Source of the DNA: a virus
Lineage: Duplodnaviria > Caudoviricetes
Direction: 5' to 3' (one strand)
IMG/VR virus record: IMGVR_UViG_3300024275_000026
Location: 1-26,121 of that record
DNA: 26,121 bases
Of the stretch, positions 3,889 through 22,316 are shown piece by piece (positions within the stretch are counted from its first letter, which is position 1; each line of letters starts with the position of its first letter). The notes below the pieces were generated by a model. It was not told the origin of the DNA. It did no database searches and was given only the letters and a program-made list of their open reading frames with translations. A program made the translations under genes and the position numbers.

Positions 3889-4905
3889 TTACATGGTGAA
3901 GCCGTACGAGTTCCCGCCGCCGCTGTAGTACGGGCTGGACGTGAACGCGCCGCTGAAGTCGCCGCCACCGAAAGATCCTGTCGTACCGCCAAACAGGTTT
4001 CCGAAACTGCCGGCGTTCTGGTAGGCATTACCAAGCCCTTGGACGCCTTGACCAATAGCCTGACCCCCGATAGCCCCCGCCGCGCCCGCGCCGGCCATCT
4101 GGTTCTGGTACGGCACGGCCTGTGCTCCCTGACCGTAATTAGCGTACGGGATAAACTGGTTCTGCAACCCCTGACCGGGGCCATACACATTCGAATTCAG
4201 GAACGATCCGAACTGGTTCGCCAGGTTCCCCGGCGTGGCGGAAATCCCCAGCGCCGTCTGATAAGGCAATTGCCCGCTCTGCAACGTGGCCTGACCTCCC
4301 TCCTGTCCGAGAGCGCCCGCCTGCCCGTAAGCCTGTCCAGCGCCTTGGGCGCCTGCCAATTGGCGTTGCAGTTGCTGGTTCTGCCAGTCGATATTAAAGT
4401 TGCCAAGCGCCTGATTCGCGACGCCTGCGCCGGCAGCACTGGACCCAAGCCCGTACATGCTGTTGGTTACGCCCGTCTGGTCCTGCAACTGCTGGAGGGT
4501 GCGGTTGTACAGCGCGTTTTGAGGATCGAACGCGGTCTGGTACAACTGGTTCCCGGCTGCGAACTGGTTATCCGCTGCGCCGCGCAACTGCCCTCCTAGA
4601 GCGCTGTACTGCTGGCTCGCCGTGTTGGCGGCGTTCTGGTACAGGTTGCCGTAGTTCGCCTGTGCTTCAAGCCCCTGGTTCAGGGATTGATTACCGTATT
4701 GCGCCAGGTTGTACTGGAGATAGTTGTTGTAGTTCTGGTTCTGGATCGCCTGCCATTGCTGGTCGGCGGTGCTCAATCCCGTGGGCACGTAATAGCTGCC
4801 GGGGCCCCCACCTCCCGACCCCCCCGAACTGGAAGGCGATATTGCGCTGGAAATTGCCGAACCGGCAACTGATGCTGCGACTCCTGCCGCGACTCCCCAA
4901 GGCAT
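3889..4905 (-). CDS. putative DNA ejection/pilot protein (P22 gp7-like position)
   Basis: 338 aa. Small-residue hydrophobic N-terminus (MPWGVAAGVAASVAGSAISS), G/Q/N/A-rich, nearly no charged residues. GGAG SD upstream. Confidence 0.7.
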   Translation of the reverse strand: MPWGVAAGVAASVAGSAISSAISPSSSGGSGGGGPGSYYVPTGLSTADQQWQAIQNQNYNNYLQYNLAQYGNQSLNQGLEAQANYGNLYQNAANTASQQYSALGGQLRGAADNQFAAGNQLYQTAFDPQNALYNRTLQQLQDQTGVTNSMYGLGSSAAGAGVANQALGNFNIDWQNQQLQRQLAGAQGAGQAYGQAGALGQEGGQATLQSGQLPYQTALGISATPGNLANQFGSFLNSNVYGPGQGLQNQFIPYANYGQGAQAVPYQNQMAGAGAAGAIGGQAIGQGVQGLGNAYQNAGSFGNLFGGTTGSFGGGDFSGAFTSSPYYSGGGNSYGFTM

Positions 4906-4908
4906 GAT

Positions 4909-5190
4909 TTACTCCTTCTCAATGTCCGGGTCCGCTATCGCTTCCGAGTGAATGCAGAGCCAGGTGATGTCTGTTAGTGCCTGAATCCGGTGCTTCTTTC
5001 CGGCTTTGATTTCCAGCATGCAAGGGCCGTGCAGAACGTACAGTTCGCCATCTATGTCTACGCTTGCATGGCCCGCGCCAAGGTAGCTAAGGTGGTCGTA
5101 GTCGTGAACGTGCTTCTCAACCACTTGCCCTGTCAGTAGCGTCTGTTCGCGCACGTACACACCGCCGGCAGAAAAGTGATGCTTTATCAT
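4909..5190 (-). CDS. cupin-fold protein
   Basis: MIKHHFSAGGVYVRE... with H-x-H-x-x-x-H (HVHDYDH) and second motif I-x-A-G-x-x-H. ATGA overlap with the upstream hydroxylase. Confidence 0.8.
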   Translation of the reverse strand: MIKHHFSAGGVYVREQTLLTGQVVEKHVHDYDHLSYLGAGHASVDIDGELYVLHGPCMLEIKAGKKHRIQALTDITWLCIHSEAIADPDIEKE

Positions 5191-5750
5191 CGCTCGCACC
5201 GCAGGCAGATAATCAGCGTGATCCGGTCATCCGGCCCGTCGTTCACGACTTCGTGCTCTTTCAGGTTATCGAAGTACCAGACTTCGCCTGGAGCCATCGA
5301 CACCCGTTCATCTTCCACGCGGTTCACGCATTGCGGATTCGACTGCAAAACCACGTACAGCTTGGTATTGTAATACTTCGCGTGCCACCCGTCGTCAGCA
5401 TGGGGCTCGATCCTCCCGCCCGGCGGTATGCGGGTAATCATCACCCCGCCAATCCGCACCGCGCGCACCCGGTGGGCGAGATCGAAAACGATCTGGTGGA
5501 GGGACGGCAGCGCGAACCATTCCGGGTAGAACTTCGCGTCATGCTCATCGTTGAACTTCGAGTAGTCGCCCGATTCCTTGAACGGCTTCTCGTCGTTGTA
5601 TCGCAACCAGATATCATCCATTGCCGCGTGCGGAGTTTCAGGCGCGGTCTTCCGGACCGTGTGCCGGTTCCACAGCTTCGGCTGGCGCGCAATCTCGAGA
5701 AGCATCGGCGCCGTGTCGATCCCCGCTGCGATTTTTATCAGATTCCTCAT
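5187..5750 (-). CDS. aspartyl/asparaginyl beta-hydroxylase-like 2OG-Fe(II) oxygenase
   Basis: Start MRNLIK at 5750 (ATGA overlap with holin stop). Motifs PGGRIEPHAD (HxD), GEVWYFDN..EHEVVN (distal His) and DRITLI (2OG-binding Arg). Confidence 0.85.
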   Translation of the reverse strand: MRNLIKIAAGIDTAPMLLEIARQPKLWNRHTVRKTAPETPHAAMDDIWLRYNDEKPFKESGDYSKFNDEHDAKFYPEWFALPSLHQIVFDLAHRVRAVRIGGVMITRIPPGGRIEPHADDGWHAKYYNTKLYVVLQSNPQCVNRVEDERVSMAPGEVWYFDNLKEHEVVNDGPDDRITLIICLRCER

Positions 5751-6130
5751 TTGGAAACGCCCTTTACGCGTTCGAAAGTGTGCAAACCGCCAAGCCCCAG
5801 CATGCCCATCAGAACGGGCATCATCTCCGACAGATCGGCAGGACTCAGCGCGATAGGGTGGCCGGCGAGCGCCAGACCGAGCTTTGCGATAGGCAGGCCC
5901 ATCCAGTTCCATACGCAGGCCATGCCGCAAGCCCATCCGATGAACGGACGCCAGCCGGCCACGAACGTGCTTTCGTTGCTCGCTTCAACCTGATTGATCG
6001 CCATTTGTCCCTGGACCATCGTCAGGACGGCGGCCAGTTGCTGCTGCTCCTGCGCGCTCTTGTCCGGCCAGATTTTTTGAACGACGGTGTTGGCGAAGTC
6101 CAGCCCCGCCGTGATAGGGTCTAGCGCCAT
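5747..6130 (-). CDS. holin (GTA/3TM holin-like family)
   Basis: GGAG SD before MALDPIT. Contains FVAGWRPFIGW and MLGLGGLHTFERVKG motifs with hydrophobic segments. Adjacent to the endolysin. Confidence 0.8.
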   Translation of the reverse strand: MALDPITAGLDFANTVVQKIWPDKSAQEQQQLAAVLTMVQGQMAINQVEASNESTFVAGWRPFIGWACGMACVWNWMGLPIAKLGLALAGHPIALSPADLSEMMPVLMGMLGLGGLHTFERVKGVSK

Positions 6131-7892: not shown

Positions 7893-9518
7893 TTACCCCT
7901 GATTCGTGTAGCCGGTGTCGGCGTAGCGCGCGAAGAACGTCCCGATTGATACGCTCTGCGAAGACGTGACCATAACGTCAATCGACATTTTCTGGAACAC
8001 CAGCGGAATGCTCCAGGGGATCGTGTAGACCTTCGGAACGTTGGCTGCTGATGCCCAAAGGAACGAACCCCACACCCCCGCGCCCCAAAGCGTGCCTGAA
8101 CTGGTTGTCAGGATGAACGTAGAATTAAGCGGGTTGTAATTCCCGTCCAGTGCGCTCAGATTGTAGTTCACCGCCAGGCCGGAAGACGAAAGCTCTATCG
8201 TTGACTCTATCACCTGCACCTGCGCCATGTGCCCGGTCTTCGGGAACGAAGACGAGGTCATGTGGCTCGTCAGGTTCGTCCCGGCGTCGTTGTACACGCT
8301 GGTCGTGTCGGGTATGCACTGGCTCTTGAACAGCGCCGCGCCGTGCGCGCTTCCGGACAAAATGAAGAAGTCGCCTACCTGGGACACACAGTCGTAGCTG
8401 AAGGTGTGGGGTCCCGTCCAGCGCTTGCGCCTGATGTCGTACCAGTAGTCGTTCGTCCCGGCCACGCCCTGCACAACGGTTGCCATGCATGCGCGATAGA
8501 CGTTACCCGTGAAGGACGCTGCCATACGTGATGGCGTGGTCGCGTTCTGGAAAGGAACCTGCAAATCAGGCGGTGCGTCTTGCCCCGGCGTATGTGATAG
8601 CGCGCCAAGGGTTCCTACGTAACTGAGCACGTAGGGGCCGTCAACAGCCGCGAAAAATATCCCGAAGGGCCCCTGAACGACGCTGCGAGGCGATACCGTG
8701 CCCGTCGTCAGCGTTATGTAGTTCAGTGCGAGGTTGTTCGTCACGGGGTCGCCCGTGATCTGCCAGATTTGCGAACCCTTGAACACAACCAGCGCGCCAA
8801 GTACGCCTGATGAAGTGGTCTGGATGGGCAGGCCGGATTGGGCCGTGATCGGCGTTGTGTCGCCGAGCGTTACCGACTGGCTGGCGTTAGTACGCGTCGT
8901 CGGAACCAGCACGTCGCTAAAGTAATCGACGTTCCCCACCGCGAAATACGCGCGGTTGTTGAAGTTCGCAACACTCGTCGGTACACCCGGTAAAGGATTC
9001 GTTGCCGTGTTGGCCGACGTCCATGTCGGCGCCGCCGGGTTCGAAATGTCGATCACACCAAAGAAATTCGCGCCCGTTCCGCTAAACCCTGGATGCGTAA
9101 CGATGATCTTCGTGCTGATGACATCCATCGTAGGCGGCGTCCAGGCGGACGCGGGGTTGGAACTCGGAGAGGTGGGCGTGTTTCCCGCCGTCACGCCCGT
9201 TATGGTCGTGAAGGTGTTCGTGAGAATGTTGTAAGCGAACGGCTCATCCTGCCCGGGGTTGCGCGCGGTTGATACCATCCCGTAAATCACGTTTCCGATT
9301 GCGATGTGCACCGAAACGAAAGTAGGCGTCGTGAAACTGCCGAACGTTGTCAGCGCAGTCCCGACTCCGGGGCGCGACACAACCAGTTCAGGGTTTCCCT
9401 GATCGAAAACGAGATTCGAGAGCGTGCGGCACGCGCCGGCGAACGCATCCGTGGAATCGAACGCGTCACAAACACCTTTAGGACTAAAACGGACTGGCTG
9501 ACCGTTGCGGATTGCCAT
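7893..9518 (-). CDS. podovirus tail nozzle / DNA-stabilisation protein (P22 gp10 / T7 gp12-like position)
   Basis: 541 aa, beta-rich, early SRPG motif, located after the adaptor gene. Confidence 0.65.
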   Translation of the reverse strand: MAIRNGQPVRFSPKGVCDAFDSTDAFAGACRTLSNLVFDQGNPELVVSRPGVGTALTTFGSFTTPTFVSVHIAIGNVIYGMVSTARNPGQDEPFAYNILTNTFTTITGVTAGNTPTSPSSNPASAWTPPTMDVISTKIIVTHPGFSGTGANFFGVIDISNPAAPTWTSANTATNPLPGVPTSVANFNNRAYFAVGNVDYFSDVLVPTTRTNASQSVTLGDTTPITAQSGLPIQTTSSGVLGALVVFKGSQIWQITGDPVTNNLALNYITLTTGTVSPRSVVQGPFGIFFAAVDGPYVLSYVGTLGALSHTPGQDAPPDLQVPFQNATTPSRMAASFTGNVYRACMATVVQGVAGTNDYWYDIRRKRWTGPHTFSYDCVSQVGDFFILSGSAHGAALFKSQCIPDTTSVYNDAGTNLTSHMTSSSFPKTGHMAQVQVIESTIELSSSGLAVNYNLSALDGNYNPLNSTFILTTSSGTLWGAGVWGSFLWASAANVPKVYTIPWSIPLVFQKMSIDVMVTSSQSVSIGTFFARYADTGYTNQG

Positions 9519-10623: not shown

Positions 10624-11112
10624 TTATCGACGGCGGTCACCACCGCGCAGCACGCGGTCTTGAGCTACCTTGTAGGCGTTTTCGTTTGCACCGCTGATGT
10701 TGTTCTCGTGATCCCAGGTGCGGGCCACGATTTCTTTCACGCTGCGCAACACGTCCGTACTGAATTCGTACGTCGTGCCGTGCACGTACTGTTGACCGTT
10801 CAGGCGGATATCGATGCCGCCGCACGGCGCGAGGTCGATGCGATACCACCAGAGGTCTTTCCCGTCGTCCGTGCGGCGCGAGAAACGCTCCGTAACGTTG
10901 GCGGTAAAGAGCGACGACTGGGCCTGAGCGGACAGACGCGCGGACTCTTCTTCCGCGATCAGCCGGCCAGCGGTCGATTTCGCCAGTTCAGCCTCAAGCG
11001 CCGCGATACGGGCTTTCAGCTGTTCCGGGGTTTCGGCGCCGGTAACTTCCGGCTTGTCGTCATCTTCAAAAACCCCCTCTTGCGAGGGGGTGTTAGGCGT
11101 GCGCGGGGGCAT
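10624..11112 (-). CDS. hypothetical protein
   Basis: 162-aa ORF with AGGAG SD, short coiled coil LKARIAALEAELAK. Confidence 0.75.
   Translation of the reverse strand: MPPRTPNTPSQEGVFEDDDKPEVTGAETPEQLKARIAALEAELAKSTAGRLIAEEESARLSAQAQSSLFTANVTERFSRRTDDGKDLWWYRIDLAPCGGIDIRLNGQQYVHGTTYEFSTDVLRSVKEIVARTWDHENNISGANENAYKVAQDRVLRGGDRRR
11068..11091 (-). terminator. intrinsic terminator after the major capsid gene, inside the next CDS
   Basis: Minus strand reads ACCCCCTC-GCAA-GAGGGGGT-TTTT: GC stem, GNRA loop, U tract. Confidence 0.75.
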
Positions 11113-11123
11113 TTAAGCTCCTG

Positions 11124-12545
11124 TTACGGTGTGGTCACGGTGCCGGCAGTATAACCCGGCGTGAATGCCGAACCGGCCTCCACACGGGCCAAAAATGCCT
11201 GGTTAAGTATAATACTTCCATAAAATACTTTCCATGATACGACGCGCGTCTGGTTAAGCGGATCGCTCTTGTCAGCGCCCGTCAGGTAGTGGAATTCCGG
11301 GTTCTCCAGCAGGACCTGGCCGTACGAGTGGTTACCGATGAAGATCGTCGGGAACACGCTGACGCCCGTGGCGGGAGCCGCCGGCGGCGTCTGCGCAACA
11401 CCGATACCCGTCAGCGTAACCGTCTGGTTCGGCAGAAGCTGCGTAGCCTGACCGGCCAGCGGGCCAGTAACGGGAACACCGTTACCGATTGCCGTTGCCA
11501 GGTTCGACGGCGTGGCCGACGTGCCGATGTACACGTTGAACACGTAGTTCGGCACGTTCGGGATCACTACCGAGATCGAGCCCGTGGGGCCCGTCACGCT
11601 GATGGCGTTCGAAACCTGATAGACGATCTGCTCGACCGACGTTTGCGCGGGCGAAGCCGTTACGATGATCTGGTAACCGGCGTTCGTTGCCAGCGTGCCG
11701 CCCGATGCCGATGCCGTGCCCTGGATGGCAGCTGCGCCCGTCCAGTAGGGCATCATGTTCGATTCAACGAAGCGCGCGCCGTTGAACGGGCCCAGTTCGT
11801 TGTTGTACAGGCGGTTCAAATCGCTGTACGACCACGCGTTCACAACCGTCGTGTTTTCGCGCATGTCCTGTGCCGACAGCGGGTGGATGAGCGCGATGTA
11901 GTGTTGCATGACAGCGGGCGACTTCGACGGGTCGCGATACGCGCCCGCTTCGATCATCATGTCTTCGCGTTCGTCGCCCATGAAGCGCGGCACGCCGTAC
12001 GTGAGGAACGAACCAACAATGCGGTTCGTCTCGTGCGGGGTCATCACGTCAGTAGCCAGCAGGTTCGCGCGGCTCGACTTGCCGTTCGCGTAGTTCACCT
12101 GAGTCGTGGCGAGGAGCGTATTGAACGTGTTGCGCTCCAGCGTTTCCGGCAGTTGCAACGCGACCAGTTCGCAGGCCTGCTGGAAGAGCGGATGCTTGAT
12201 GGTCAGGTTGGCGACGTCGGTGATGATGACGCGATCGCCCCACTGTTGAGCCGTGGCCGAAACCTGTTGCAGCGTCATCGCTTCGCCGGGGGGCGCTACA
12301 CCTTCCTGCAACGGCGCGAACGGCAGTGGCAGGCGCTGGTAGCGCGAAGCCGTGTACGTCGTGCCACGGTTCGTGTCCAGCTTCAGCGGTTTGCCGAACT
12401 GGTACGCGACCAGCTGGCGGCGCGCGAGCGGCTCGACTTCTTCCTGAATGTACGCTTCAACGTCCGCCGTAAAGCTGGTGGACTGGTTGGTAACGCCCGG
12501 GAACAGCGAGGCCCACAAGAGGCCCAATTTTTTGAGGTATCGCAT
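11124..12545 (-). CDS. major capsid protein, N4-gp56-like family (HK97 fold)
   Basis: Start MRYLKK at 12545 (GAGG SD). Motifs QFGKP, LQEGVAP, QWGDRVIITD, YIALIHP, ELGPFNGARFVES, DKSDPLNQ..VSWK. Confidence 0.9.
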   Translation of the reverse strand: MRYLKKLGLLWASLFPGVTNQSTSFTADVEAYIQEEVEPLARRQLVAYQFGKPLKLDTNRGTTYTASRYQRLPLPFAPLQEGVAPPGEAMTLQQVSATAQQWGDRVIITDVANLTIKHPLFQQACELVALQLPETLERNTFNTLLATTQVNYANGKSSRANLLATDVMTPHETNRIVGSFLTYGVPRFMGDEREDMMIEAGAYRDPSKSPAVMQHYIALIHPLSAQDMRENTTVVNAWSYSDLNRLYNNELGPFNGARFVESNMMPYWTGAAAIQGTASASGGTLATNAGYQIIVTASPAQTSVEQIVYQVSNAISVTGPTGSISVVIPNVPNYVFNVYIGTSATPSNLATAIGNGVPVTGPLAGQATQLLPNQTVTLTGIGVAQTPPAAPATGVSVFPTIFIGNHSYGQVLLENPEFHYLTGADKSDPLNQTRVVSWKVFYGSIILNQAFLARVEAGSAFTPGYTAGTVTTP

Positions 12546-12561
12546 GGTTTCCTCTTCGTGG

Positions 12562-13281
12562 TTAAATATTCTGGTTCGCGAGACGCTCACGACGCTTGTC
12601 CTGGTCTGAGCGCCCCGAACGTGCCGGTACATCACTGCGAACTCCTGCCGACTTCCCGCGCGGCACTGCCGGTGCGGACGACTTGGGCTTTGCCTTAAGC
12701 TTGCCTTCAGCAATGTCCTTACCGAGCATCCAGTAGTACACATCCTCGCGTGAGGCTTGCTGACCGCGTGAACGTGCTTTCTGGACTTCTTCTTCCACCC
12801 GCTCCGTGTACTTCGCGCGGCGCGGTTCGCTCGCAATCTTCGACTCGAAGCGCGCGCGGTCCGACATGTCTTGCGCCTGGAACATGGCCTGCTGTGCCTG
12901 ACGTTGCGTGTCGCGCAGCGTGCGGTTGGCCTGAATCTGCCAGCGCTCCATTTCCGTCGTGTCCGGACTGCGGAGCCGCTCCTCTTCGCGCTGATACTCC
13001 GTGTCTACGGGCGCAGACTGACTCGAAAGGCGCGCTTCCGCTGCAAGGCGTCCACGGCGTTCGACTTCAGCTTCCAGGCGAGCCAGACGCTCAGCAGAAT
13101 CATCGCGGCGCGATGTGGTCCGTGCAGGAGGATCGTCAGGCAGGTCATCAGCAGGCAGATCCAGATCGTCATCATCACTGGGATCAGGTGCAGGAAGGTC
13201 ATCAGGTAGGGGATCATCGTCAGGTTCTCCGTCAATCCCCGGAAAAAGAAGGCCTAAGAGTTTTTTAAGCAGCTTGTTCAC
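12562..13281 (-). CDS. capsid scaffolding protein
   Basis: Directly upstream of the capsid gene. D/P-rich acidic linker, long charged helical middle, basic tail. AAGGA SD before GTG. Confidence 0.75.
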   Translation of the reverse strand: MNKLLKKLLGLLFPGIDGEPDDDPLPDDLPAPDPSDDDDLDLPADDLPDDPPARTTSRRDDSAERLARLEAEVERRGRLAAEARLSSQSAPVDTEYQREEERLRSPDTTEMERWQIQANRTLRDTQRQAQQAMFQAQDMSDRARFESKIASEPRRAKYTERVEEEVQKARSRGQQASREDVYYWMLGKDIAEGKLKAKPKSSAPAVPRGKSAGVRSDVPARSGRSDQDKRRERLANQNI

Positions 13282-13290
13282 TTGGGTTCC

Positions 13291-13812
13291 TTAACTCTGC
13301 GTGCCGGTGCCAATGGCTTGCAGCGTCATCGCTGCGGAGGCGCCAACACCCGTGATAGTGACAATGAAATCGCGCCAAGTGTTTTGCGCAACCGTCATCG
13401 TACCGTTCAGTGTCCAGCCGCTGGCGGTCGTGACCGTCCACGCGAAGTTAGCACTGGAACTGTTGATGACGCGAAGGAGAGTGGTCGAACCGACGACGGC
13501 CTGCTGCGCCGTCATCGTTGCCAGCATTACGGCGGCGGTCGGCAGCGTCAGGGCAGCGCCTGCGCCGAGCGTACCGGTAAGATTCAGGACGGTCGATTCC
13601 GCGCCCATGATTTGGGCTTGGGTTGCCGTGAAGCCGGTTGTGTTCGTGGCTGCGTTATAGATAGCTGCCTGCCACGGGTTGATCGACAGAATCGAGTTGA
13701 TCAATCCGGTTTGGTCCGCCAGTGCGCCGAGCATCGGCGTAATGTTGGGAGTTTGCCCCTGGATCGAGGGGTAAAGCGCGCCGATCAGGGCGCTAAGACG
13801 GGTTTTTCGCAT
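13291..13812 (-). CDS. putative head decoration / virion structural protein (173 aa)
   Basis: Start MRKTRL at 13812 (AGGGGA SD). T/A/G-rich beta-type sequence with LTLPTAA motif. Co-transcribed with scaffold and capsid. Confidence 0.65.
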   Translation of the reverse strand: MRKTRLSALIGALYPSIQGQTPNITPMLGALADQTGLINSILSINPWQAAIYNAATNTTGFTATQAQIMGAESTVLNLTGTLGAGAALTLPTAAVMLATMTAQQAVVGSTTLLRVINSSSANFAWTVTTASGWTLNGTMTVAQNTWRDFIVTITGVGASAAMTLQAIGTGTQS

Positions 13813-13839
13813 GGTATTCCCCTGATTAGGCTTTCGCCG

Positions 13840-13868
13840 GTTATATAGCGTTTGTTTCAAAAAGTCAA
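13840..13868 (-). promoter_or_regulatory. near-consensus sigma70 promoter TTGACT-17-TATAAC for the head cassette
   Basis: -35 at 13868-13863 (overlapping the upstream stop codon), -10 at 13845-13840, 17-bp spacer. Confidence 0.75.
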
Positions 13869-15268
13869 CGTACGCGCCGCGCGCGTATATAGCCGTTTGT
13901 GGTCATGGTGCCGCCTGAAAAATTCGCCATTGCCACCAGAAACACCGTAGTGGTTCCCGATACGCTGATTCGCGTCACCATCGGGCAAGCCACGGGGTTT
14001 GTGTTAGTTCCTAGCGTTCCCGTCAGTGCGGTGATACCAAACCCGCTAGTGGCGACTGGCATCGTGGCGGAAGTAGTGTTAATAGCAACACTCCATTGCG
14101 TCGTGGCCGTGCCTGCTGCCGTTACCGCTACCGCTTGCCCCGTAACGTCCCAATCACCCGCCGTCAGCGAAATAGACGTTACATTGGCCGCAACACCTGT
14201 TGACAGGGAGACTGCTGAAGCGTTGGCGGTTACGAACTCCCCCACACTGCCCGCCTGCGCGCTGTCGTTCGTCACTGTCCCGACAATGCCGGCTACTGAG
14301 TTCGGCGTGATCGTGCTCGACGCAGCCAGCGTGGTGAACTGCCCCGTGCTCGCTGCCGTGTTGCCGATAGGGCCAGGCGACGCGAAGCGGTTCACGAATC
14401 CCGTACCGCTTACTGTCGAGCTGGCCGACAGCGTGGTGAACGCGCCCGTGTTCGCTGCCGTGCTGCCAATCGGGGGTGGCGATGCAAACAGACTGGTGAA
14501 CCCCGCACCGCTTACGGTAGACGTGGCGGAAAGCGTTGTGAATGCGCCGGTGTTCGGCGTCGTTGCCCCCACCGTTCCGTTAAGCGCACCGCTCGTTGAT
14601 GTAAGCGAAGTGAAAGCACCCGTACCCGGCGTCGTCGCGCCCACGTTCGTACTGTTGATGCCGCCCGTAGCGCTGAAACCGCCTGTGTGCGCCCATGCGC
14701 CAGTGCCGCTCGTGGAGGTGATGCCGCTGATGCCTGCGGCCTGCCCGCCCGTGATCGCCAGCGCGTTCGTAAATCCGGTGAACGCGTCATTGGCAAAGCC
14801 AAACGCCAGAACCGTGCTACCCCACGTGACGAACGCGTTTTTGTTGTTCGCGCTGCGGATCGAGTCGATAAACTGGACCGTGGGGTTCGGGCTGTTGTAA
14901 ATCTGCGTGCCCGTGGCGGTCACCGCCGGCACCGCGCCGCCGGATGCAAACAGACTGCCGGCGGTCGCCGTCGTGAAAGCACCTGTGCTCGGTGTCGTTC
15001 CACCAATCGGCGTGTTATTGATCGTACCGCCCGTGACGGATACACCCGACATCGTGCCGGAAGTCGCATGCACCGCTGACACCGTGGGATTCGGATACGT
15101 ACCCGACAGATCACCGCCCGCCGGGCCCGTCGGGTCACTAGCAACGCTGTTCAGCGCAATCGTTGTCTGCTGCGCGAGCGAGTTGATTGCGGCCTGCACT
15201 TCCTCAGGCGGCACATCGGTGCCCGCGCTGCGCACCTTGTAAGGCGTAATCAGGAATGTGTCAGACAT
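13865..15268 (-). CDS. Thr/Gly-rich fibre or spike protein
   Basis: 467 aa. GPAGGDLSGTYPNPTV motif, five (I/V)G-x-T-x-x-x-TG-x-FT repeats, C-terminal AGSVGE...SISLTAGDWDV...ARRVR domain typical of phage fibres. Confidence 0.75.
   Translation of the reverse strand: MSDTFLITPYKVRSAGTDVPPEEVQAAINSLAQQTTIALNSVASDPTGPAGGDLSGTYPNPTVSAVHATSGTMSGVSVTGGTINNTPIGGTTPSTGAFTTATAGSLFASGGAVPAVTATGTQIYNSPNPTVQFIDSIRSANNKNAFVTWGSTVLAFGFANDAFTGFTNALAITGGQAAGISGITSTSGTGAWAHTGGFSATGGINSTNVGATTPGTGAFTSLTSTSGALNGTVGATTPNTGAFTTLSATSTVSGAGFTSLFASPPPIGSTAANTGAFTTLSASSTVSGTGFVNRFASPGPIGNTAASTGQFTTLAASSTITPNSVAGIVGTVTNDSAQAGSVGEFVTANASAVSLSTGVAANVTSISLTAGDWDVTGQAVAVTAAGTATTQWSVAINTTSATMPVATSGFGITALTGTLGTNTNPVACPMVTRISVSGTTTVFLVAMANFSGGTMTTNGYIRARRVR
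14328..15012 (-). repeat. protein-level fibre repeats, including a 34-aa (102-bp) tandem duplication
   Basis: IGGTTPSTGAFTT, VGATTPGTGAFTSL, VGATTPNTGAFTTL, IGSTAANTGAFTTL, IGNTAASTGQFTTL. Confidence 0.8.
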
Positions 15269-15596
15269 GGAGTGCCCTTAACCGTTTGCTTATCGATGGG
15301 CGCCCGCCGGGGCAGTGCGTCAAGAGATACGTGACAAGTCCCGGCCCGTAGCCGCACGTTTTCGCGTACTGGTCTGCCTCCAGTTCCTGCGCCTCGCACA
15401 TCGCGAAGAACTTCTCAGTCTGGAAGAACGCGCGCAGCGTCACGAACCACAGAAGGCGTGTGCGCACGTGCTTGTGGTGCAGGTGCCCGCGCTCATGAGC
15501 CAGAATCGCGTTCTGTTCAAACACCGACAGAGAGGCAAACTGGCTCCCGGTCTGTATTGTGCCCCATGGCGTGACGCGCGCGCAGAATTCTCTCAC
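15261..15596 (-). CDS. minimal M48/M56-like zinc metallopeptidase
   Basis: AILAHERGHLHHKH (HExxH), QELEADQYA (third ligand ExxAD), TH.P...S...RL.AL tail. GTG overlaps the portal stop (GTGA). Confidence 0.8.
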   Translation of the reverse strand: MREFCARVTPWGTIQTGSQFASLSVFEQNAILAHERGHLHHKHVRTRLLWFVTLRAFFQTEKFFAMCEAQELEADQYAKTCGYGPGLVTYLLTHCPGGRPSISKRLRALHV

Positions 15597-17773
15597 CGCG
15601 GCCCCATTTGAGAGTCTTGGATAACATCAGGGTGCACCATACCGGCGGGACCCTGGGGTCGTGGCTGGCCGGGTTGCGCGCCGGGGCGCGGTGTTCCGGC
15701 CACGCCTGGCGCCGCGCCGCCGGGTACTCCCGGCTGGCCTTGCGGTGCGCCCAGTTGTTTCTGCATCTTCTGATTCATGGCCTGCTGGTGCGCCTGGATG
15801 TGCGCGCGGAAGAGGCCCATCGGATCGCCAGTGAGCGTCGCGCCGCGCATGTGCTCCGCGATGTGCCTCTGGTCGTCGTCCGCCGGATGCACTTCCGCAG
15901 GCAAACCGTTGTGCATCATCAGGTTTTCGTCCGACGGCTCGACGTGGAACAGGTTTCGCTCATCGATCAGGATGCGCGGCCCGACTTCCGGACCGAATAT
16001 CTGTTCGGTGCCCATCTCCAGAATCGGACCGACGTTCAGGCGTCTGCCGTCCAGCTGTTGCGGCGGAATGCCTCGCAGCACGTTCATCCACGCAATCATC
16101 TGCTGCATGCGCTGCATACCCGTCTGATAGGCCGTGCCGCACCAACGGAAGAAGTACCGTTCGTTGAACGCCTGCACGGGAATCTCTTCCTGCTTCGCCC
16201 GCGCGCCGACTTCGCCCATTGTTACGACAGTCAGTTCCTTCGTGCGGAACTGGCGGTCAAGTTCGAACATGCGTTCCAGCAGCGGGTTCAGGATGCAGCC
16301 TTCGTAGCGCTTGGCGTGGTCGATAATGTTCGACTGCTGTTCCTGCGCCTGCGCTGCGGCCTGCGCCTGATTCTTCCGGCCTGCCGGCATCTTGCCGAGC
16401 ATGGCGTCATTGACTTCCATGCTCTCGTTGATCTGCGCCTTGATTGCCTGACACAGGGCCACGGCATCCTTGTAGATGGCCGGGAACTGCGCGAACTGCG
16501 TCTTCTGCGGATCGGTCAGCCACACGGCTGCGAGGCCCATCACCATCGACTGATAGTTGGGGTTCGCCAGCGGATCGGTCATCACGATAGGCAGAAGCGC
16601 GTATTGCGCGCTGTCTTGCCCCATGTTCCAGTAGTCGTTCAAGTTCCACTGGAGGTACTTCACGGGTTCTACTCGCGAAATGCCGTAAATCGTTCCCTGA
16701 ATCCGCTCCACAGGCGCCGTGATGATCGGACGTTTCTTTGACCAGAACGGGTTGCGGATGATGCCGAGAATTATTTCCGGGCCGGCGTAGTAGACGAAGC
16801 AGGGTTCCTTGCCGCGTCCTTCTTCCAGTTCCAGATTCGTGTGCACCTCATAGATCAGTGCGTATTTGTACGTGCCTTCCGTGCGCACGCCGGCATCCGC
16901 CGTGCGGCGCTTGTTCGGCACGCGTTTCTGGCGCCCGCCATCCGGCTCGTTCAGGTTGTCCATGATTTCTTTCGCGTTCCAGCCGACGAAGACGCCTTCA
17001 TCGATGAACTGCTGGACGGATTCCTTCGACAGGCGCAGCCGTACCGCCGTGGCGGTCGCGCGCTCGATGTCGTTCACGGTCGGCGGGTAGACGGCCAGAT
17101 CATCAACCGCCATCGGCGTGATGTCCGGCATCTCGTCAACAATTTCCTTCTCTTCGACGTCCCATTCTTCCTCGACGGTCACGTCTTCCACATCCACGCC
17201 TGCGGCTTCGTCCGTCAGGATGGGCGGTTTCTTGACCAGTTCCGTGATCCGGCGCGTGGTCTTCATCCAGTCCACGTACAGGCACCATTGCCCCGTCACA
17301 TCGCCCGACAGCAGATCCGCGCGAACGATGTCCTTCAGGTTCGTTTTGCGGATGTAATGCTCTAGTAAGGCGAGCGTAGGAAACGGCGTAACGCTTGCGG
17401 GTCCAACAGCATCGACATGCTTGTAGTTGGCAGGGAAGAGCGTTGCCAGAGTGCGCTTACAGCGCGCATTGATGGCGTCCCGGACAGCGGGGATGTAACA
17501 CTGGCTGTTACCTGTGTACTGCTGGTTTTCGTCGGGGCGCGCATTGTAGATGTTCCAGTATTCTTCAACCCAATCGGACTGCTGCTGTTTGTTTTCCCAG
17601 CACTTCTGGATCTTCGGGTAGAGCTTGCAGGCGTCGATATAGGCTTCGCTGCCCGTATCTTCCGCGAAATTCTCCAGTTCCTCGCCCGTCTTTTCAGCGT
17701 CCAAAGCCCGTGAATCGAGGGTTTCGATTACGGGCTCTTCGACCTTCTTTTCTTCTTTCTTTTTGCGCGCCAT
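15593..17773 (-). CDS. portal protein
   Basis: 726 aa downstream of terminase. IYGISRVEPV...Q..LN and D..LG patterns, helical core, Q/P/G-rich tail as in podovirus portals. Confidence 0.85.
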   Translation of the reverse strand: MARKKKEEKKVEEPVIETLDSRALDAEKTGEELENFAEDTGSEAYIDACKLYPKIQKCWENKQQQSDWVEEYWNIYNARPDENQQYTGNSQCYIPAVRDAINARCKRTLATLFPANYKHVDAVGPASVTPFPTLALLEHYIRKTNLKDIVRADLLSGDVTGQWCLYVDWMKTTRRITELVKKPPILTDEAAGVDVEDVTVEEEWDVEEKEIVDEMPDITPMAVDDLAVYPPTVNDIERATATAVRLRLSKESVQQFIDEGVFVGWNAKEIMDNLNEPDGGRQKRVPNKRRTADAGVRTEGTYKYALIYEVHTNLELEEGRGKEPCFVYYAGPEIILGIIRNPFWSKKRPIITAPVERIQGTIYGISRVEPVKYLQWNLNDYWNMGQDSAQYALLPIVMTDPLANPNYQSMVMGLAAVWLTDPQKTQFAQFPAIYKDAVALCQAIKAQINESMEVNDAMLGKMPAGRKNQAQAAAQAQEQQSNIIDHAKRYEGCILNPLLERMFELDRQFRTKELTVVTMGEVGARAKQEEIPVQAFNERYFFRWCGTAYQTGMQRMQQMIAWMNVLRGIPPQQLDGRRLNVGPILEMGTEQIFGPEVGPRILIDERNLFHVEPSDENLMMHNGLPAEVHPADDDQRHIAEHMRGATLTGDPMGLFRAHIQAHQQAMNQKMQKQLGAPQGQPGVPGGAAPGVAGTPRPGAQPGQPRPQGPAGMVHPDVIQDSQMGPR

Positions 17774-18452: not shown

Positions 18453-18980
18453 TTAGGGCATGTCCGGCCACTGCCGGTTGCTCTTGCGGAGATTATCCGA
18501 AGCTGGTAATACCTGCAAGTTTTGTTCGCAATGCAAGCCGCAAACCAGCGGATTATTTAATGGAACTGCGTGGTCCACGTGATACCACTCGCCGGTAACC
18601 ATGCCGAGAAAGTCGGCAGCGAAATAGAATTCTTTGACCTTATCGGTGTTCGCCCATTTCGGAGTCGCTTGCAAAAGCGCCGCCTTACGCTTCGCGTTGT
18701 ACTGCCTCGCCTGATGTGGGTTCAACCTGTGCCGCTCGATCCGGCCTGCGGCCTGCTTCTCTTTTGTCCGTAGATAGGTCGCGCGGCGAAGCGCCTTCAC
18801 GTGCTCCGGTTTTTCTTCCTTCTGGCGTTTCTTTTTCGCCTTGACCTTTTCCGGATTGTTTCGGGCCCACTCCAGATTCATAGCCTTCAGGCAGGGTTTG
18901 CAGTACGACTGGTAGTACTTTCCCGCTTTGTAAAATTCGCTGAAGGACTTTTCTGTTTTGCAGGTTTTACACGTTTTCAT
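18453..18980 (-). CDS. HNH endonuclease with N-terminal Zn-finger
   Basis: CKTCK.EK..SEFY...SYCKPC, then HVDHAVPL...VCGLHCEQNLQVL...DNLRKSN. More AT-rich than its neighbours. ATGA overlap with terminase. Confidence 0.88.
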   Translation of the reverse strand: MKTCKTCKTEKSFSEFYKAGKYYQSYCKPCLKAMNLEWARNNPEKVKAKKKRQKEEKPEHVKALRRATYLRTKEKQAAGRIERHRLNPHQARQYNAKRKAALLQATPKWANTDKVKEFYFAADFLGMVTGEWYHVDHAVPLNNPLVCGLHCEQNLQVLPASDNLRKSNRQWPDMP

Positions 18981-20977
18981 TTGCGGGGCAAGGTGGTGAA
19001 ATAGGCAGTTCCGTACGGATTTGTACCCCTGTGTAGATCATCTGGCAAGGAGTTTTCGCGAGAAGTCAGCACAAATACCGCCGACTCCAGCCCCTCCAGC
19101 AAGGTCCGGTGCGCGCCGCGCTCAGGCTCCGCCGCCAGTTGCCCCGTCTTGCTGACCGGGTAGCAGTAGCCGCCCGCGAGCGCGTTCAACGTCTGCCGCG
19201 CGTTGCTATCGACCAGCAACAGGCGCTTGCCCTTCATCTCCGTGCGGATCATGGGCGACAGCGCGCCGCGCGCCATGCTCGGGTAGGCTCCGCGCATCGG
19301 GTTCATCTTCGCCGTTCGCAAGGCGGTCATCAGCGGCATGCGGTCCGCCTGGTCGGCAACGTCGCCCGGTATCCAGCAGGTCAGTCTTGCTCGCGGGAAA
19401 GCTGCGCGTACAAGTTGCAGCACGTCCGGTACAGCCTGCGCTGGCACGACTGGCGAAATCCAGTCGGCAACCACGGCGAGGCGCTCACCCTCAACAGAAA
19501 CAAGCACCGCCGTAGTCTCACTCCCGTTCGCGTTGAAGCAGAGCGCCATTGCATCGCGGGCAGTAGGTTCATACCCGTCGATGATGTTGTAGCTGCCGAA
19601 GTCTTCATAGACGGGGACTCCCGAGAACACACGCTGCGCGTACGCCAGCGCGTTGAGAATGTCGCGCTTGCCGGACGGGAAGTTCAGTATCTCCGCGACC
19701 AGCTGCGCGTGCTGCCCGCGTCCGCCCACCAGTACCACGTCCCCGGCTTCGAAGAACGGCTGAAGGCCCATGATGAACTGTTCCTTGCTCCGGTCCTGCG
19801 GCGCCTGGATTGCCTTGAGCGGCAGACTCACCCCCCTTCTAAGCATCTCCGCGCGCATCGGCTGGAGCAACCACTCGTCAAGCGAATTCTTTTCTATCGC
19901 CACGTTCGCATCATCAAATCTCCTTGATGTGTCGAACGCATCCGCGATTATCTGGTCGGGTTTCCAGTACTCGCCGGAACTTGCGTGCACGTAGATCCGT
20001 GTCCCGAGTCTTGAAAGTACCACCCGGCCAGTGCGGTCGCTGCTAGTAACGCTAGCAGTTCGGGCAGGATCAACCACCAGCGTTTTCGGTAGCCAGGGCG
20101 CGGGGTCCAATGCGATTTCACGTACGTGTTCCGGTGAGAAAGGTTTGTCCGCTGTACCAACGGCTTCGAGCATGTACTCCTGCAAAAAGCCGTTCAGTTC
20201 GCCCGCGCGCTCCATCTGGTCGCGGCGCTTGCGTATCCACTCCATCGGGAAGCGTTCCGGCCACGCGGCAACAGTAGCCGGGTCATCGATATCCCCGTCG
20301 CAGATCGGCACACGTATGCTGGTCCAGTCGGGACTCTCCCGTAGCCGGACGATCATGCAGTCTTCCGCAAGCGGCGTCCCCGTTACCCGGATCTTGCCTT
20401 TCTCCTTGTCCATCGCGGGCAGCAGTTCCAGCATGATCTTGTTGATGCTCTTCTTGACGGAAGTTGCATCCTTGACCCGCTCCTTGTTCTCGATGTCGTC
20501 CAAGTACGCGCGGTCAGGCCGCAGATCGTGCCACTTGTAGCCACGGATTTCTTCCTCCCACCCGTGCGCCTCGATCATCACACCGTTGGCAAGTTCAATC
20601 TGGTTCTCGTTCCACACACGGTTCGCTACTTTCAGTTTGCCGAAAAGCGACAGCAATTTCATGTTGTGGACCGCTTCGAACTTGATCGCCTCCAGCCTCT
20701 GGCAGGCCTTCGTGTACGTCTCGCCCAGGATGATGCAGTAGCCGAAGTTTCCGAAACACGCTTCGAGCAGCAGGAATTCTTCCGACAGGGTGGACTTGGC
20801 GCCGCCCCGGAACGCCTCCACCACCACCAGTTCATCCTGGCTGCGCCACGCGTCCACTACCGCGATATGGAAAGGCGGACTGGCGTTGGGGTGCCGGTGC
20901 GGAAACACCATCGCGCTCGCCAATGCCCGGTCTTCCGAGATGACGCGCAGCGTGGCTGCGCTTGTGAGTCCTGTCAC
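18977..20977 (-). CDS. terL: terminase large subunit with extra C-terminal domain
   Basis: Walker A AFRGGAKST, Walker B AYLDDIE, motif III VTGTP, nuclease motifs VVDPA...D.TG, AIEKN, FPSGKRD. Confidence 0.92.
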   Translation of the reverse strand: MTGLTSAATLRVISEDRALASAMVFPHRHPNASPPFHIAVVDAWRSQDELVVVEAFRGGAKSTLSEEFLLLEACFGNFGYCIILGETYTKACQRLEAIKFEAVHNMKLLSLFGKLKVANRVWNENQIELANGVMIEAHGWEEEIRGYKWHDLRPDRAYLDDIENKERVKDATSVKKSINKIMLELLPAMDKEKGKIRVTGTPLAEDCMIVRLRESPDWTSIRVPICDGDIDDPATVAAWPERFPMEWIRKRRDQMERAGELNGFLQEYMLEAVGTADKPFSPEHVREIALDPAPWLPKTLVVDPARTASVTSSDRTGRVVLSRLGTRIYVHASSGEYWKPDQIIADAFDTSRRFDDANVAIEKNSLDEWLLQPMRAEMLRRGVSLPLKAIQAPQDRSKEQFIMGLQPFFEAGDVVLVGGRGQHAQLVAEILNFPSGKRDILNALAYAQRVFSGVPVYEDFGSYNIIDGYEPTARDAMALCFNANGSETTAVLVSVEGERLAVVADWISPVVPAQAVPDVLQLVRAAFPRARLTCWIPGDVADQADRMPLMTALRTAKMNPMRGAYPSMARGALSPMIRTEMKGKRLLLVDSNARQTLNALAGGYCYPVSKTGQLAAEPERGAHRTLLEGLESAVFVLTSRENSLPDDLHRGTNPYGTAYFTTLPRK

Positions 20978-21777: not shown

Positions 21778-22263
21778 TTATGGCACGTGCTTCCAGGTCT
21801 TGCGAGACCGGATGAAGTGGATCGACACTTGCGACACGCCGTACTTTGCCGCCAGTTCGCGCTCTGTGGAGCGTTCGGCCCGGATTTCCCGGACATCGTT
21901 TTCCGTCAGCTTTGCGCGTGGGTGCTTCTCGCCTGCCGTTGACGTACCGTGATAAACCGTATCGGCCATGTTCACGGCGTGCGTCTCCCACTCCAGGTTC
22001 CCGTCGTTGTTATTCGTGCAGTCGCCGTCCAGGTGCCGGCACTCCGTTCCAGCTGGCGCGGGGCCGACGAACGCCTCCAGCACCAGCCGGTGAATCTGCA
22101 CGCGCCGCAGATTGCCGTTCTTCGATAGCGTCACCTGAAGCCTGCCCTGCATGTTGTAACCGGGTTTCAGGAAATGCTCCTGACCCTTGACGCGCTTCAC
22201 CATCCCTGTGTTGCTCACCTGATACCAGCCTTCGTAGCCCTTTACGTCTGCCCACTGCTCCAT
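21778..22263 (-). CDS. NUMOD4-HNH homing endonuclease with C-terminal HTH
   Basis: GGAGG SD before MEQWADVKGYEGWYQVSNTG (NUMOD4). HRLVLEAF...CRHLDG...NN..NLEW (HNH). KLTE.DV.EIR...ELAAKYGVS (HTH). Confidence 0.92.
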   Translation of the reverse strand: MEQWADVKGYEGWYQVSNTGMVKRVKGQEHFLKPGYNMQGRLQVTLSKNGNLRRVQIHRLVLEAFVGPAPAGTECRHLDGDCTNNNDGNLEWETHAVNMADTVYHGTSTAGEKHPRAKLTENDVREIRAERSTERELAAKYGVSQVSIHFIRSRKTWKHVP

Positions 22264-22276
22264 GATCGCCTCCGTG

Positions 22277-22316
22277 TTGATAAGTGAATCATAGTTAACT
22301 TGTCGCAACTTATCAA
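22277..22316 (-). promoter_or_regulatory. sigma70 promoter TTGATA-17-TATGAT heading the packaging/late genes, bracketed by a 9-bp inverted repeat
   Basis: -35 at 22316-22311, -10 at 22293-22288. TTGATAAGT at 22277-22285 and ACTTATCAA at 22308-22316. Confidence 0.7.

What the first reader, a model, noticed from the sequence alone, without database searches (positions are those of the whole stretch)
11068..15596. Shared N-terminal leader on three head proteins plus an M48-like metallopeptidase in the prohead-protease slot: candidate leader-directed capsid maturation system
Seen: three consecutive, otherwise unrelated proteins start with a similar ~15-17 aa basic-then-hydrophobic leader ending L(F/Y)P(G/S). 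Capsid MRYLKKLGLLWASLFPG|VTN, scaffold MNKLLKKLLGLLFPG|IDG, 173-aa protein MRKTRLSALIGALYPS|IQG. I did not find it at the start of any other protein in the window. A 111-aa HExxH/ExxAD peptidase is translationally coupled to the portal, and no S78/S49/ClpP-type prohead protease is recognisable. Established: staphylococcal phage 80alpha capsid and scaffold share an N-terminal leader removed by the host protease Prp, which Proteobacteria lack. M48/M56 peptidases typically act at membranes. Inference: the leaders are amphipathic membrane-targeting or recognition tags removed by the phage-encoded peptidase, a Prp-analogous but self-encoded route. I do not know of a description of this, but cannot search the literature.
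Basis: partly seen in the sequence, partly recalled or inferred. Interest (0 to 1): 0.85.

Follow-up and report, generated by a model that had tools for sequence, protein, structure and literature searches.

The report
Phage head leaders with mini zinc-protease
An uncultured phage starts its capsid, scaffold and a spike-like protein with the same short add-on leader and encodes a stripped-down zinc protease beside the portal gene; that protease turns up only with leader-bearing capsids, in two unrelated phage groups, so it likely clips the leaders off, which would be an undescribed, metal-dependent way of processing virus heads.

Summary

The leaders are conserved add-ons: leaderless capsid relatives start at the predicted junction. 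The 111-aa protein folds like the ZMPSTE24/Ste24 catalytic core (Z 10.2), keeps its zinc ligands and has no transmembrane helix.

Across 146 distinct capsids whose locus spans portal to capsid: 91 have leader and peptidase, 54 have neither, 1 has an extension only, none has peptidase only. That is a single clade, so one event. An unrelated capsid family gives a second pairing (3 of 64 capsids have a mini-M48; all 3 have leaders). Capsid and scaffold leader ends change together between genomes, at protein level.

Against: leaders also occur without M48; membrane targeting is weakly supported; in 80alpha, cleavage is dispensable.

Best reading (about 0.7): a phage-encoded M48-type peptidase removes a shared leader. 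It works like 80alpha/Prp but with a different enzyme class. This scan noted the same system before on other DNA. Nine keyword searches of open papers bearing on this found no description. The second capsid family was not among the earlier notes retrieved.

The parts
11124..12545 (-). Major capsid protein, N4-gp56 family, 473 aa
   Evidence: TIGR04387 138.5 bits over cut-off 60; phrog_1357 major head E 5e-42
12495..12545 (-). 17-aa capsid leader ending LFPG; predicted cut before V18
   Evidence: An extension of 8-26 aa in 119 of 120 homologues (read by eye); leaderless relatives start 0-3 residues before the equivalent position
12562..13281 (-). Scaffold-like protein, 239 aa: acidic Pro/Asp arm, then a conserved C-terminal domain
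   Evidence: Position and composition; homologues directly before the capsid gene in leader-bearing and leaderless phages; no family hit, so the role is inferred
13237..13281 (-). 15-aa scaffold leader ending LFPG; amphipathic; predicted cut before I16
   Evidence: Matrix score 22.5; hydrophobic moment 0.61, reached by 1.9% of shuffles; conserved
13291..13812 (-). 173-aa spike-like virion protein (head or tail location not resolved)
   Evidence: Model pLDDT 76; best fold match Pa223 capsid spike, Z 9.2, rmsd 2.8 over 94 residues, tied with tailspike domains
13765..13812 (-). 16-aa leader of the spike-like protein ending LYPS
   Evidence: Weak alone (score 7.5); homologues read LFP[GAS]|[IV]; some paralogues lack it and start near the junction
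13865..15268 (-). 467-aa fibre-like protein without leader, between peptidase and spike gene
   Evidence: phrog_11393 tail fibre E 3e-18; leader score -6.3
15261..15596 (-). 111-aa minimal M48-type (gluzincin) zinc peptidase, overlapping the portal stop and the next start
   Evidence: PF01435 24.8 bits over cut-off 20.3; model pLDDT 95.8; ZMPSTE24 Z 10.2, rmsd 2.0 over 103 residues
15483..15497 (-). HExxH motif (H34-E35-H38)
   Evidence: Invariant in 48 aligned homologues
15372..15386 (-). ExxAD motif (E71-D75), predicted third zinc ligand
   Evidence: E71 and D75 invariant; aligns to the Ste24/ZMPSTE24 motif
15593..17773 (-). Portal protein, no leader
   Evidence: phrog_1216 portal E 2e-8 and phrog_332 E 2e-11; leader score -5.4
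18977..20977 (-). Terminase large subunit (context)
   Evidence: phrog_38 E 3e-47

Best explanation
The capsid, scaffold and spike-like proteins carry a shared N-terminal add-on leader, and the phage's own minimal M48-type zinc peptidase likely recognises it and is predicted to cut after the last leader residue (LFPG|V, LFPG|I, LYPS|I), leaving N-termini that would match those of leaderless relatives. Shown: the leaders, their conservation at protein level, the peptidase fold and intact zinc ligands, the co-occurrence. Inferred: binding, cleavage and the exact bond. Inferred more weakly: the intact hydrophobic leader gathers the head proteins before the cut (on a common partner, on the peptidase or at the membrane surface); the cut need not be the trigger of capsid expansion.
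For: (1) Add-on: leaderless capsids start 0-3 residues before the junction; leader length runs 8-30 aa with the end fixed. (2) Co-occurrence: of 146 distinct capsids spanning portal to capsid, 91 have both, 54 neither, 1 an extension only, 0 peptidase only. In whole records, 0 of 26 (25 leaderless plus L372; 17 at least 90% complete) hold the peptidase. Seven new spanning metagenome capsids fit. Divergent peptidases led to five more loci of this family that reach the capsid, all with leaders. (3) Second pairing in a capsid family that does not align to this one: 3 of 64 distinct capsids have a mini-M48 before the scaffold and all 3 have 31-36-aa leaders; 0 of 16 leaderless records hold it. (4) Capsid and scaffold leader ends change together: within-genome score 13.8 against 8.1 between genomes, n=33, p=5e-5, also inside subclades; codons are not shared. 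(5) HExxH plus ExxAD in 116 of 118 locus copies (the 2 others are cut by contig ends) and in 148 of 150 representatives; the fold is the Ste24/ZMPSTE24 catalytic core. (6) The gene sits between portal and scaffold at varying distances.
Against: No cleavage data. In this family, leader plus peptidase is one clade, so the 2x2 table is one event; only 4 tree-independent pairs exist for the motif co-variation, not significant. Leaders without M48 exist: L372 (57% complete); three complete records of the second family with 53-aa signal-like capsid extensions; and scaffold-only leaders ending [FY][AS]P in 6 of 49 leaderless-capsid scaffolds (by eye). The motif is loose for a protease site (P1 = G, A, S, Q, R, H, P, L). 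Motif similarity tracks the capsid as well as the peptidase (partial r 0.23 and 0.21). In 80alpha, cleavage of the analogous leaders is dispensable (PMC5744158, passages). Activity of so small an M48 core is untested.
Confidence: 0.7

Rival explanations
1. The leaders are removed by a host protease (signal peptidase, TldD/E or HtpX type; names recalled), as 80alpha uses host Prp, and the phage M48 has another substrate and merely travels with this clade.
For: Capsid or scaffold extensions exist in phages without any M48; the leaders are basic-then-hydrophobic like signal peptides; the co-occurrence in this family is one event; host processing is documented for 80alpha.
Against: Every head-module mini-M48 seen with a readable capsid start accompanies a leader, in two unrelated capsid families. 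No loss of the peptidase among 91 spanning leader capsids of the clade. The motif changes per genome in both genes together, which fits a phage-encoded reader better than a fixed host enzyme.
Confidence: 0.13
2. The leader is an uncleaved assembly or folding tag (self-association, membrane contact or chaperone binding) that stays on the proteins; the M48-fold protein binds it, or clears misfolded or leftover scaffold.
For: In 80alpha the intact scaffold N-terminus is required but its cleavage is not. The scaffold leader is amphipathic. The P1 residue varies widely.
Against: Catalytic residues are invariant. The conserved part of the leader is its C-terminal end, at the position where leaderless relatives begin, and the leader length is free.
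Confidence: 0.12
3. The shared motif reflects a DNA- or RNA-level element (translation signal or gene conversion), or chance.
For: The leaders occupy the translation-initiation region; the 173-aa leader is within chance alone.
Against: In 37 genome pairs with FPG in both genes, third bases agree in 16, 14 and 1 of 37, at or below expectation. The last six leader codons diverge synonymously like the capsid core (0.31 against 0.34 per codon).
Confidence: 0.03

Closest known systems
Staphylococcus phage 80alpha capsid/scaffold leaders cut by host Prp (PMC5744158 and PMC9405229, passages read)
   Same: A short conserved N-terminal leader shared by unrelated head proteins; no classical prohead protease recognised.
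   Different: Motif (LFPG|V or FLxLG|V against NLQxF|A); the enzyme is predicted to be a phage-encoded zinc peptidase, not a host cysteine protease; close relatives are Burkholderia and Paraburkholderia prophages, and E. coli is listed as lacking Prp.
Phage Cp-1 cysteine protease of clan CR (PMC9405229, passage)
   Same: A protease that removes an N-terminal capsid extension in a phage.
   Different: Cysteine enzyme related to Prp; about 40-aa extension; no M48 fold.
Peptidase family M48: Ste24/ZMPSTE24, HtpX, BepA; M56 BlaR1
   Same: HExxH plus ExxAD, fold superposes over 103 of 111 residues. That Ste24 trims N-terminal extensions of a-factor is recalled.
   Different: Only the catalytic core; no transmembrane helix here (maximum 19-residue hydropathy 0.92; 9 of 115 homologues reach 1.6); stand-alone 114-177 aa in the 150 best representatives; encoded in a phage head operon.
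Minigluzincins (proabylysin 4jiu, selecase 4qhf)
   Same: Similar size (105-110 aa), HExxH gluzincin.
   Different: Weaker fold match (Z 5.0 and 4.4 over about 70 residues) than ZMPSTE24; archaeal, no phage substrate known to me.
Classical prohead proteases (HK97 gp4, T4 gp21, lambda gpC; recalled)
   Same: Gene between portal and scaffold/capsid; T4 gp21 cuts several head proteins at a shared motif (recalled).
   Different: Those are serine enzymes (recalled); here leaderless relatives have no protease gene in that slot.

Membership tests
Peptidase M48 (PF01435) | Score above the Pfam gathering cut-off | tested here: met
   24.8 bits against 20.3, on a short stretch only, residues 27-55
Peptidase M48 (PF01435) | HExxH plus downstream ExxAD third ligand | tested here: met
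   Invariant; aligned to Ste24
Peptidase M48 (PF01435) | Gluzincin catalytic fold of Ste24/ZMPSTE24 | tested here: met
   VIA Z 10.2, rmsd 2.0, 103 aligned; Foldseek top rows ZMPSTE24 and Ste24 but E above 0.001
Peptidase M48, membrane members (Ste24, HtpX) | Transmembrane helices | tested here: not met
   Maximum 19-residue hydropathy 0.92; HtpX equivalog 12 bits against 285; the second-family copies do reach 2.1-2.6
Peptidase M48 (PF01435) | Zinc-dependent proteolytic activity | not testable with these tools
   Needs an assay
80alpha/Prp leader system | Leader shared by capsid and scaffold | tested here: met
80alpha/Prp leader system | NLQxF|A motif | tested here: not met
   Window leaders end LFPG or LYPS; Prp motif
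80alpha/Prp leader system | Cut by host Prp | not tested
   Host genomes were not searched for Prp; the host is inferred from relatives
Classical prohead proteases (S78/S49/ClpP-like) | Family profile hit in the head operon | tested here: not met
   None among 23 proteins against PHROGs and 17 against Pfam; record 68% complete
N4-gp56 family major capsid protein (TIGR04387) | Score above cut-off | tested here: met
   138.5 against 60
Capsid spike (Pa223 type) | Fold and location on the head, for the 173-aa protein | tested here: inconclusive
   Z 9.2, tied with tailspike domains at 9.0 and 8.6

The most novel reading that the evidence does not exclude
A portable 'hydrophobic leader plus mini-M48' module, gained at least twice by unrelated phage head modules, tags nascent capsid proteins, holds them together (possibly at the inner membrane) and releases them by zinc-dependent cleavage: a metalloprotease-run head-processing pathway in tailed phages, with enzyme and motif drifting together between genomes.
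Probability: 0.4. Interest if true: 0.85.

Novelty: new variant of a known kind. Interest (0 to 1): 0.72.

Why it matters
Head-processing proteases of tailed phages are, as I recall, serine or cysteine enzymes; a zinc M48 enzyme in that role would be a new class. The role of shared head leaders is stated to be unclear even for 80alpha, and Prp is host-essential. Here enzyme and substrates are all phage-encoded and small, and natural leaderless relatives exist, so the question becomes directly testable. A 111-aa M48 core without membrane helices, with defined peptide substrates and natural motif variants (448 clusters at E up to 1e-10), would also be a simple model for Ste24/ZMPSTE24/HtpX specificity.

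Tried and rejected
Complex prediction of peptidase + Zn + capsid residues 1-32 gave 'no answer' (score 0.21, mark 0.32); it is no evidence either way.

A search for fused peptidase forms found only three ordinary long M48/Ste24 proteins; it covered 278-2000 aa and is weak evidence. No GenBank phage matched the window peptidase or the L473 peptidase; a divergent copy gave only weak matches at E 0.3-0.5. No solved capsid matched the capsid profile, so mature N-termini could not be read from structures. The Atlas search of the 173-aa protein gave only unnamed viral clusters.

Tree-independent contrasts were too few. Peptidase-motif co-variation could not be separated from shared descent. The DNA-level explanation is rejected. 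'Amphipathic membrane tag on all three' is rejected for the 173-aa protein.

Papers: searches found no description of this system (31, 70 and 100 returned nothing; 12, 13 and 69 were seen as listings only); one search was for minigluzincins (listing only). Passages of PMC4936722, PMC3706429 and PMC6563490 mention M48 only as an annotation elsewhere. Subscription papers and supplements were not seen and could hold a description.
Full report
Observation. The window is a 68%-complete virus record with a head operon on the minus strand: terminase, portal, 111-aa peptidase, 467-aa fibre-like gene, 173-aa gene, scaffold-like gene, N4-gp56-family capsid. Its closest named relatives are prophages of Burkholderia and Paraburkholderia; the host is inferred from them. 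A matrix trained only on 32 capsid leaders scores the scaffold as high as the capsid (22.5, 22.6); the 173-aa leader is weak (7.5, below TerL at 8.9), and the other 24 of 28 genes score 3.1 or less. The 173-aa leader rests on its homologues, which read LFP[GAS]|[IV]. Its fold is a spike domain found both in the Pa223 capsid spike and in tailspikes, so 'head protein' is plausible but not settled.

The leader is an add-on. Of 120 database homologues, 119 have an extension of 8-26 residues before the conserved x-T/V-N (by eye; one starts four residues before it). More distant capsids (50-59% identical) begin 0-3 residues before that same position, and most of their scaffolds begin directly with the acidic arm. 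Five close loci carry a 32-codon in-frame insertion inside the capsid leader with the junction intact; an internal ATG could shorten it to 13 residues. The constraint is on protein: with FPG in both genes, third bases agree in 16, 14 and 1 of 37 genome pairs, at or below expectation; the last six leader codons diverge synonymously like the core, 0.31 against 0.34 per codon, with more replacements than the core, 0.24 against 0.07.

The peptidase. It passes the Pfam M48 cut-off, and its profile hits Ste24/ZMPSTE24 first. Its model (pLDDT 95.8) superposes on ZMPSTE24 over 103 of 111 residues (Z 10.2, rmsd 2.0). HExxH and ExxAD are present in 116 of 118 locus copies, the two others being cut by contig ends, and in 148 of 150 best representatives, all 114-177 aa long. 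There is no transmembrane helix here. Among 93 distinct copies with a portal in the locus, 58 are coupled to the portal stop and 35 lie further down, in one subclade directly before the scaffold.

Co-occurrence. From 354 loci with an intact capsid start I kept 217 distinct capsids; 71 whose locus does not span portal to capsid were set aside (30 leader without peptidase seen, 13 with, 28 leaderless without). Of the 146 left, 91 have both, 54 neither, 1 an extension only (L372) and 0 the peptidase only. Profile scores were bimodal, under 1e-16 or 0.05 and above. Whole-record searches found no peptidase in 25 leaderless records or in L372 (17 at least 90% complete); ten records already known to hold it served as positive controls. 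Of 35 new metagenome capsids, 7 span the region: 6 neither, 1 both. Caveat: leader plus peptidase is one well-supported clade, so this is one event followed by retention.

A second pairing. A scan with a divergent peptidase subfamily returned 19 loci, of which I inspected 8; nine others were contigs already held and two matched the L082 type in score. Five (L459 and L460, which share one gene set, L461, L462, L464) have this capsid family with leaders on capsid, scaffold and spike paralogues. One (L470) ends before the capsid; one (L474) is a weak hit without head genes. L473 is an unrelated head module: phrog_145 portal, minor head, mini-M48, scaffold, phrog_283 capsid, and that capsid does not align to the window's. 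It has a 35-residue hydrophobic extension. Among 64 distinct capsids of that family (80 loci), three have the mini-M48 and all three have 31-36-residue leaders (L505 corrected); they form one clade. Their peptidases have a transmembrane-like helix and their scaffolds show no leader. None of 16 leaderless records holds the gene (12 at least 90% complete). Three complete records of this family have 53-residue signal-like extensions and no M48. So in the data seen, peptidase implies leader, twice; leader does not imply peptidase.

Concerted change. Capsid and scaffold are unrelated, yet their leader ends match within genomes: FESQ|L with LECQ|V, FTRG|V with FCRG|V, IAPG|V with AAPG|V, LTLG|V with LHLG|V. 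In 33 clusters at 85% identity (scaffolds with a non-hydrophobic predicted start were dropped as wrong calls), the within-genome score is 13.8 against 8.1, p=5e-5. It holds inside subclades (p 2.5e-4, n=13; 5e-5, n=20; 0.003, n=13; 0.02, n=7), but several genomes disagree and only four tree-independent pairs exist, not significant. Motif similarity follows peptidase similarity after allowing for capsid similarity (partial r 0.21, p 0.002), and the reverse holds equally (0.23, p 0.01). This points to a common reader of the motif without proving which.

Mechanism. Most likely the phage peptidase binds the hydrophobic leader and cuts at its end (about 0.7; inferred). What the intact leader does first is less certain. 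The scaffold leader is amphipathic, the capsid leader marginally (7.6% of shuffles reach it), the spike leader not, so membrane tethering is a possibility, better suited to the second family. Leaderless relatives have no protease gene in this slot, and in 80alpha cleavage is dispensable while the intact scaffold N-terminus is required (PMC5744158, passages), so 'maturation trigger' would overstate it. Some spike paralogues in leader-bearing phages lack the leader. Rivals are host processing (0.13), an uncleaved tag (0.12) and a nucleotide-level cause (0.03).

Comparison and novelty. It works like the 80alpha/Prp system and phage Cp-1 (PMC9405229 and PMC5744158, passages) but is not a member: other motif, other enzyme class. 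It belongs to M48 by profile, motif and fold, without the membrane domain. Searches found no description; the library lacks most subscription papers and I saw no supplements. Earlier notes of this scan describe the same system on other DNA; they are unchecked and not counted as support. The second capsid family was not among the notes retrieved. Verdict: real, a new variant of a known kind, interest 0.72.

Noticed in passing
L473:5668-8285; L476; L505: Unrelated phrog_283-capsid module with a membrane-anchored-looking mini-M48 before the scaffold and a 31-36-aa capsid leader ending GLVAG(G); scaffold without leader.
   Followed up: yes
L497, L504, L517 at 4842-5000: 53-aa signal-peptide-like extension on phrog_283 capsids in complete records with no M48; processing enzyme unknown.
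   Followed up: partly
L222, L256, L263, L270, L274, L304 scaffold starts: Scaffold-only leader of another type, ending [FY][AS]P before the acidic arm, in phages with leaderless capsids and no M48 seen.
   Followed up: no
L372:4966-5460 and 8887-8990: Long hydrophobic extensions on the capsid and on a spike-like protein, scaffold leaderless, no M48 in the 57%-complete record; its close relatives L370 and L373 have leaderless capsids.
   Followed up: partly
L010:3464-3610 (also L011, L012, L014, L017): 32-codon in-frame insertion inside the capsid leader; junction kept; an internal ATG is an alternative start.
   Followed up: partly
L085, L093, L096, L333, L460, L470: Leader-bearing phages often have two or three spike paralogues and other small genes with the genome's own leader motif; some paralogues lack it.
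   Followed up: partly
window 4909-5936: Adjacent cupin and Asp/Asn beta-hydroxylase-like genes between the ejection-protein genes and the lysis genes; a similar hydroxylase-like gene occurs in L372.
   Followed up: no
window 18453-18980 and 21778-22308: Two homing-type endonuclease genes near the terminase region.
   Followed up: no
window 12546-12836: The capsid frame stays open far upstream of its ATG, overlapping the scaffold 3' end in another frame; no sign that it is used.
   Followed up: no
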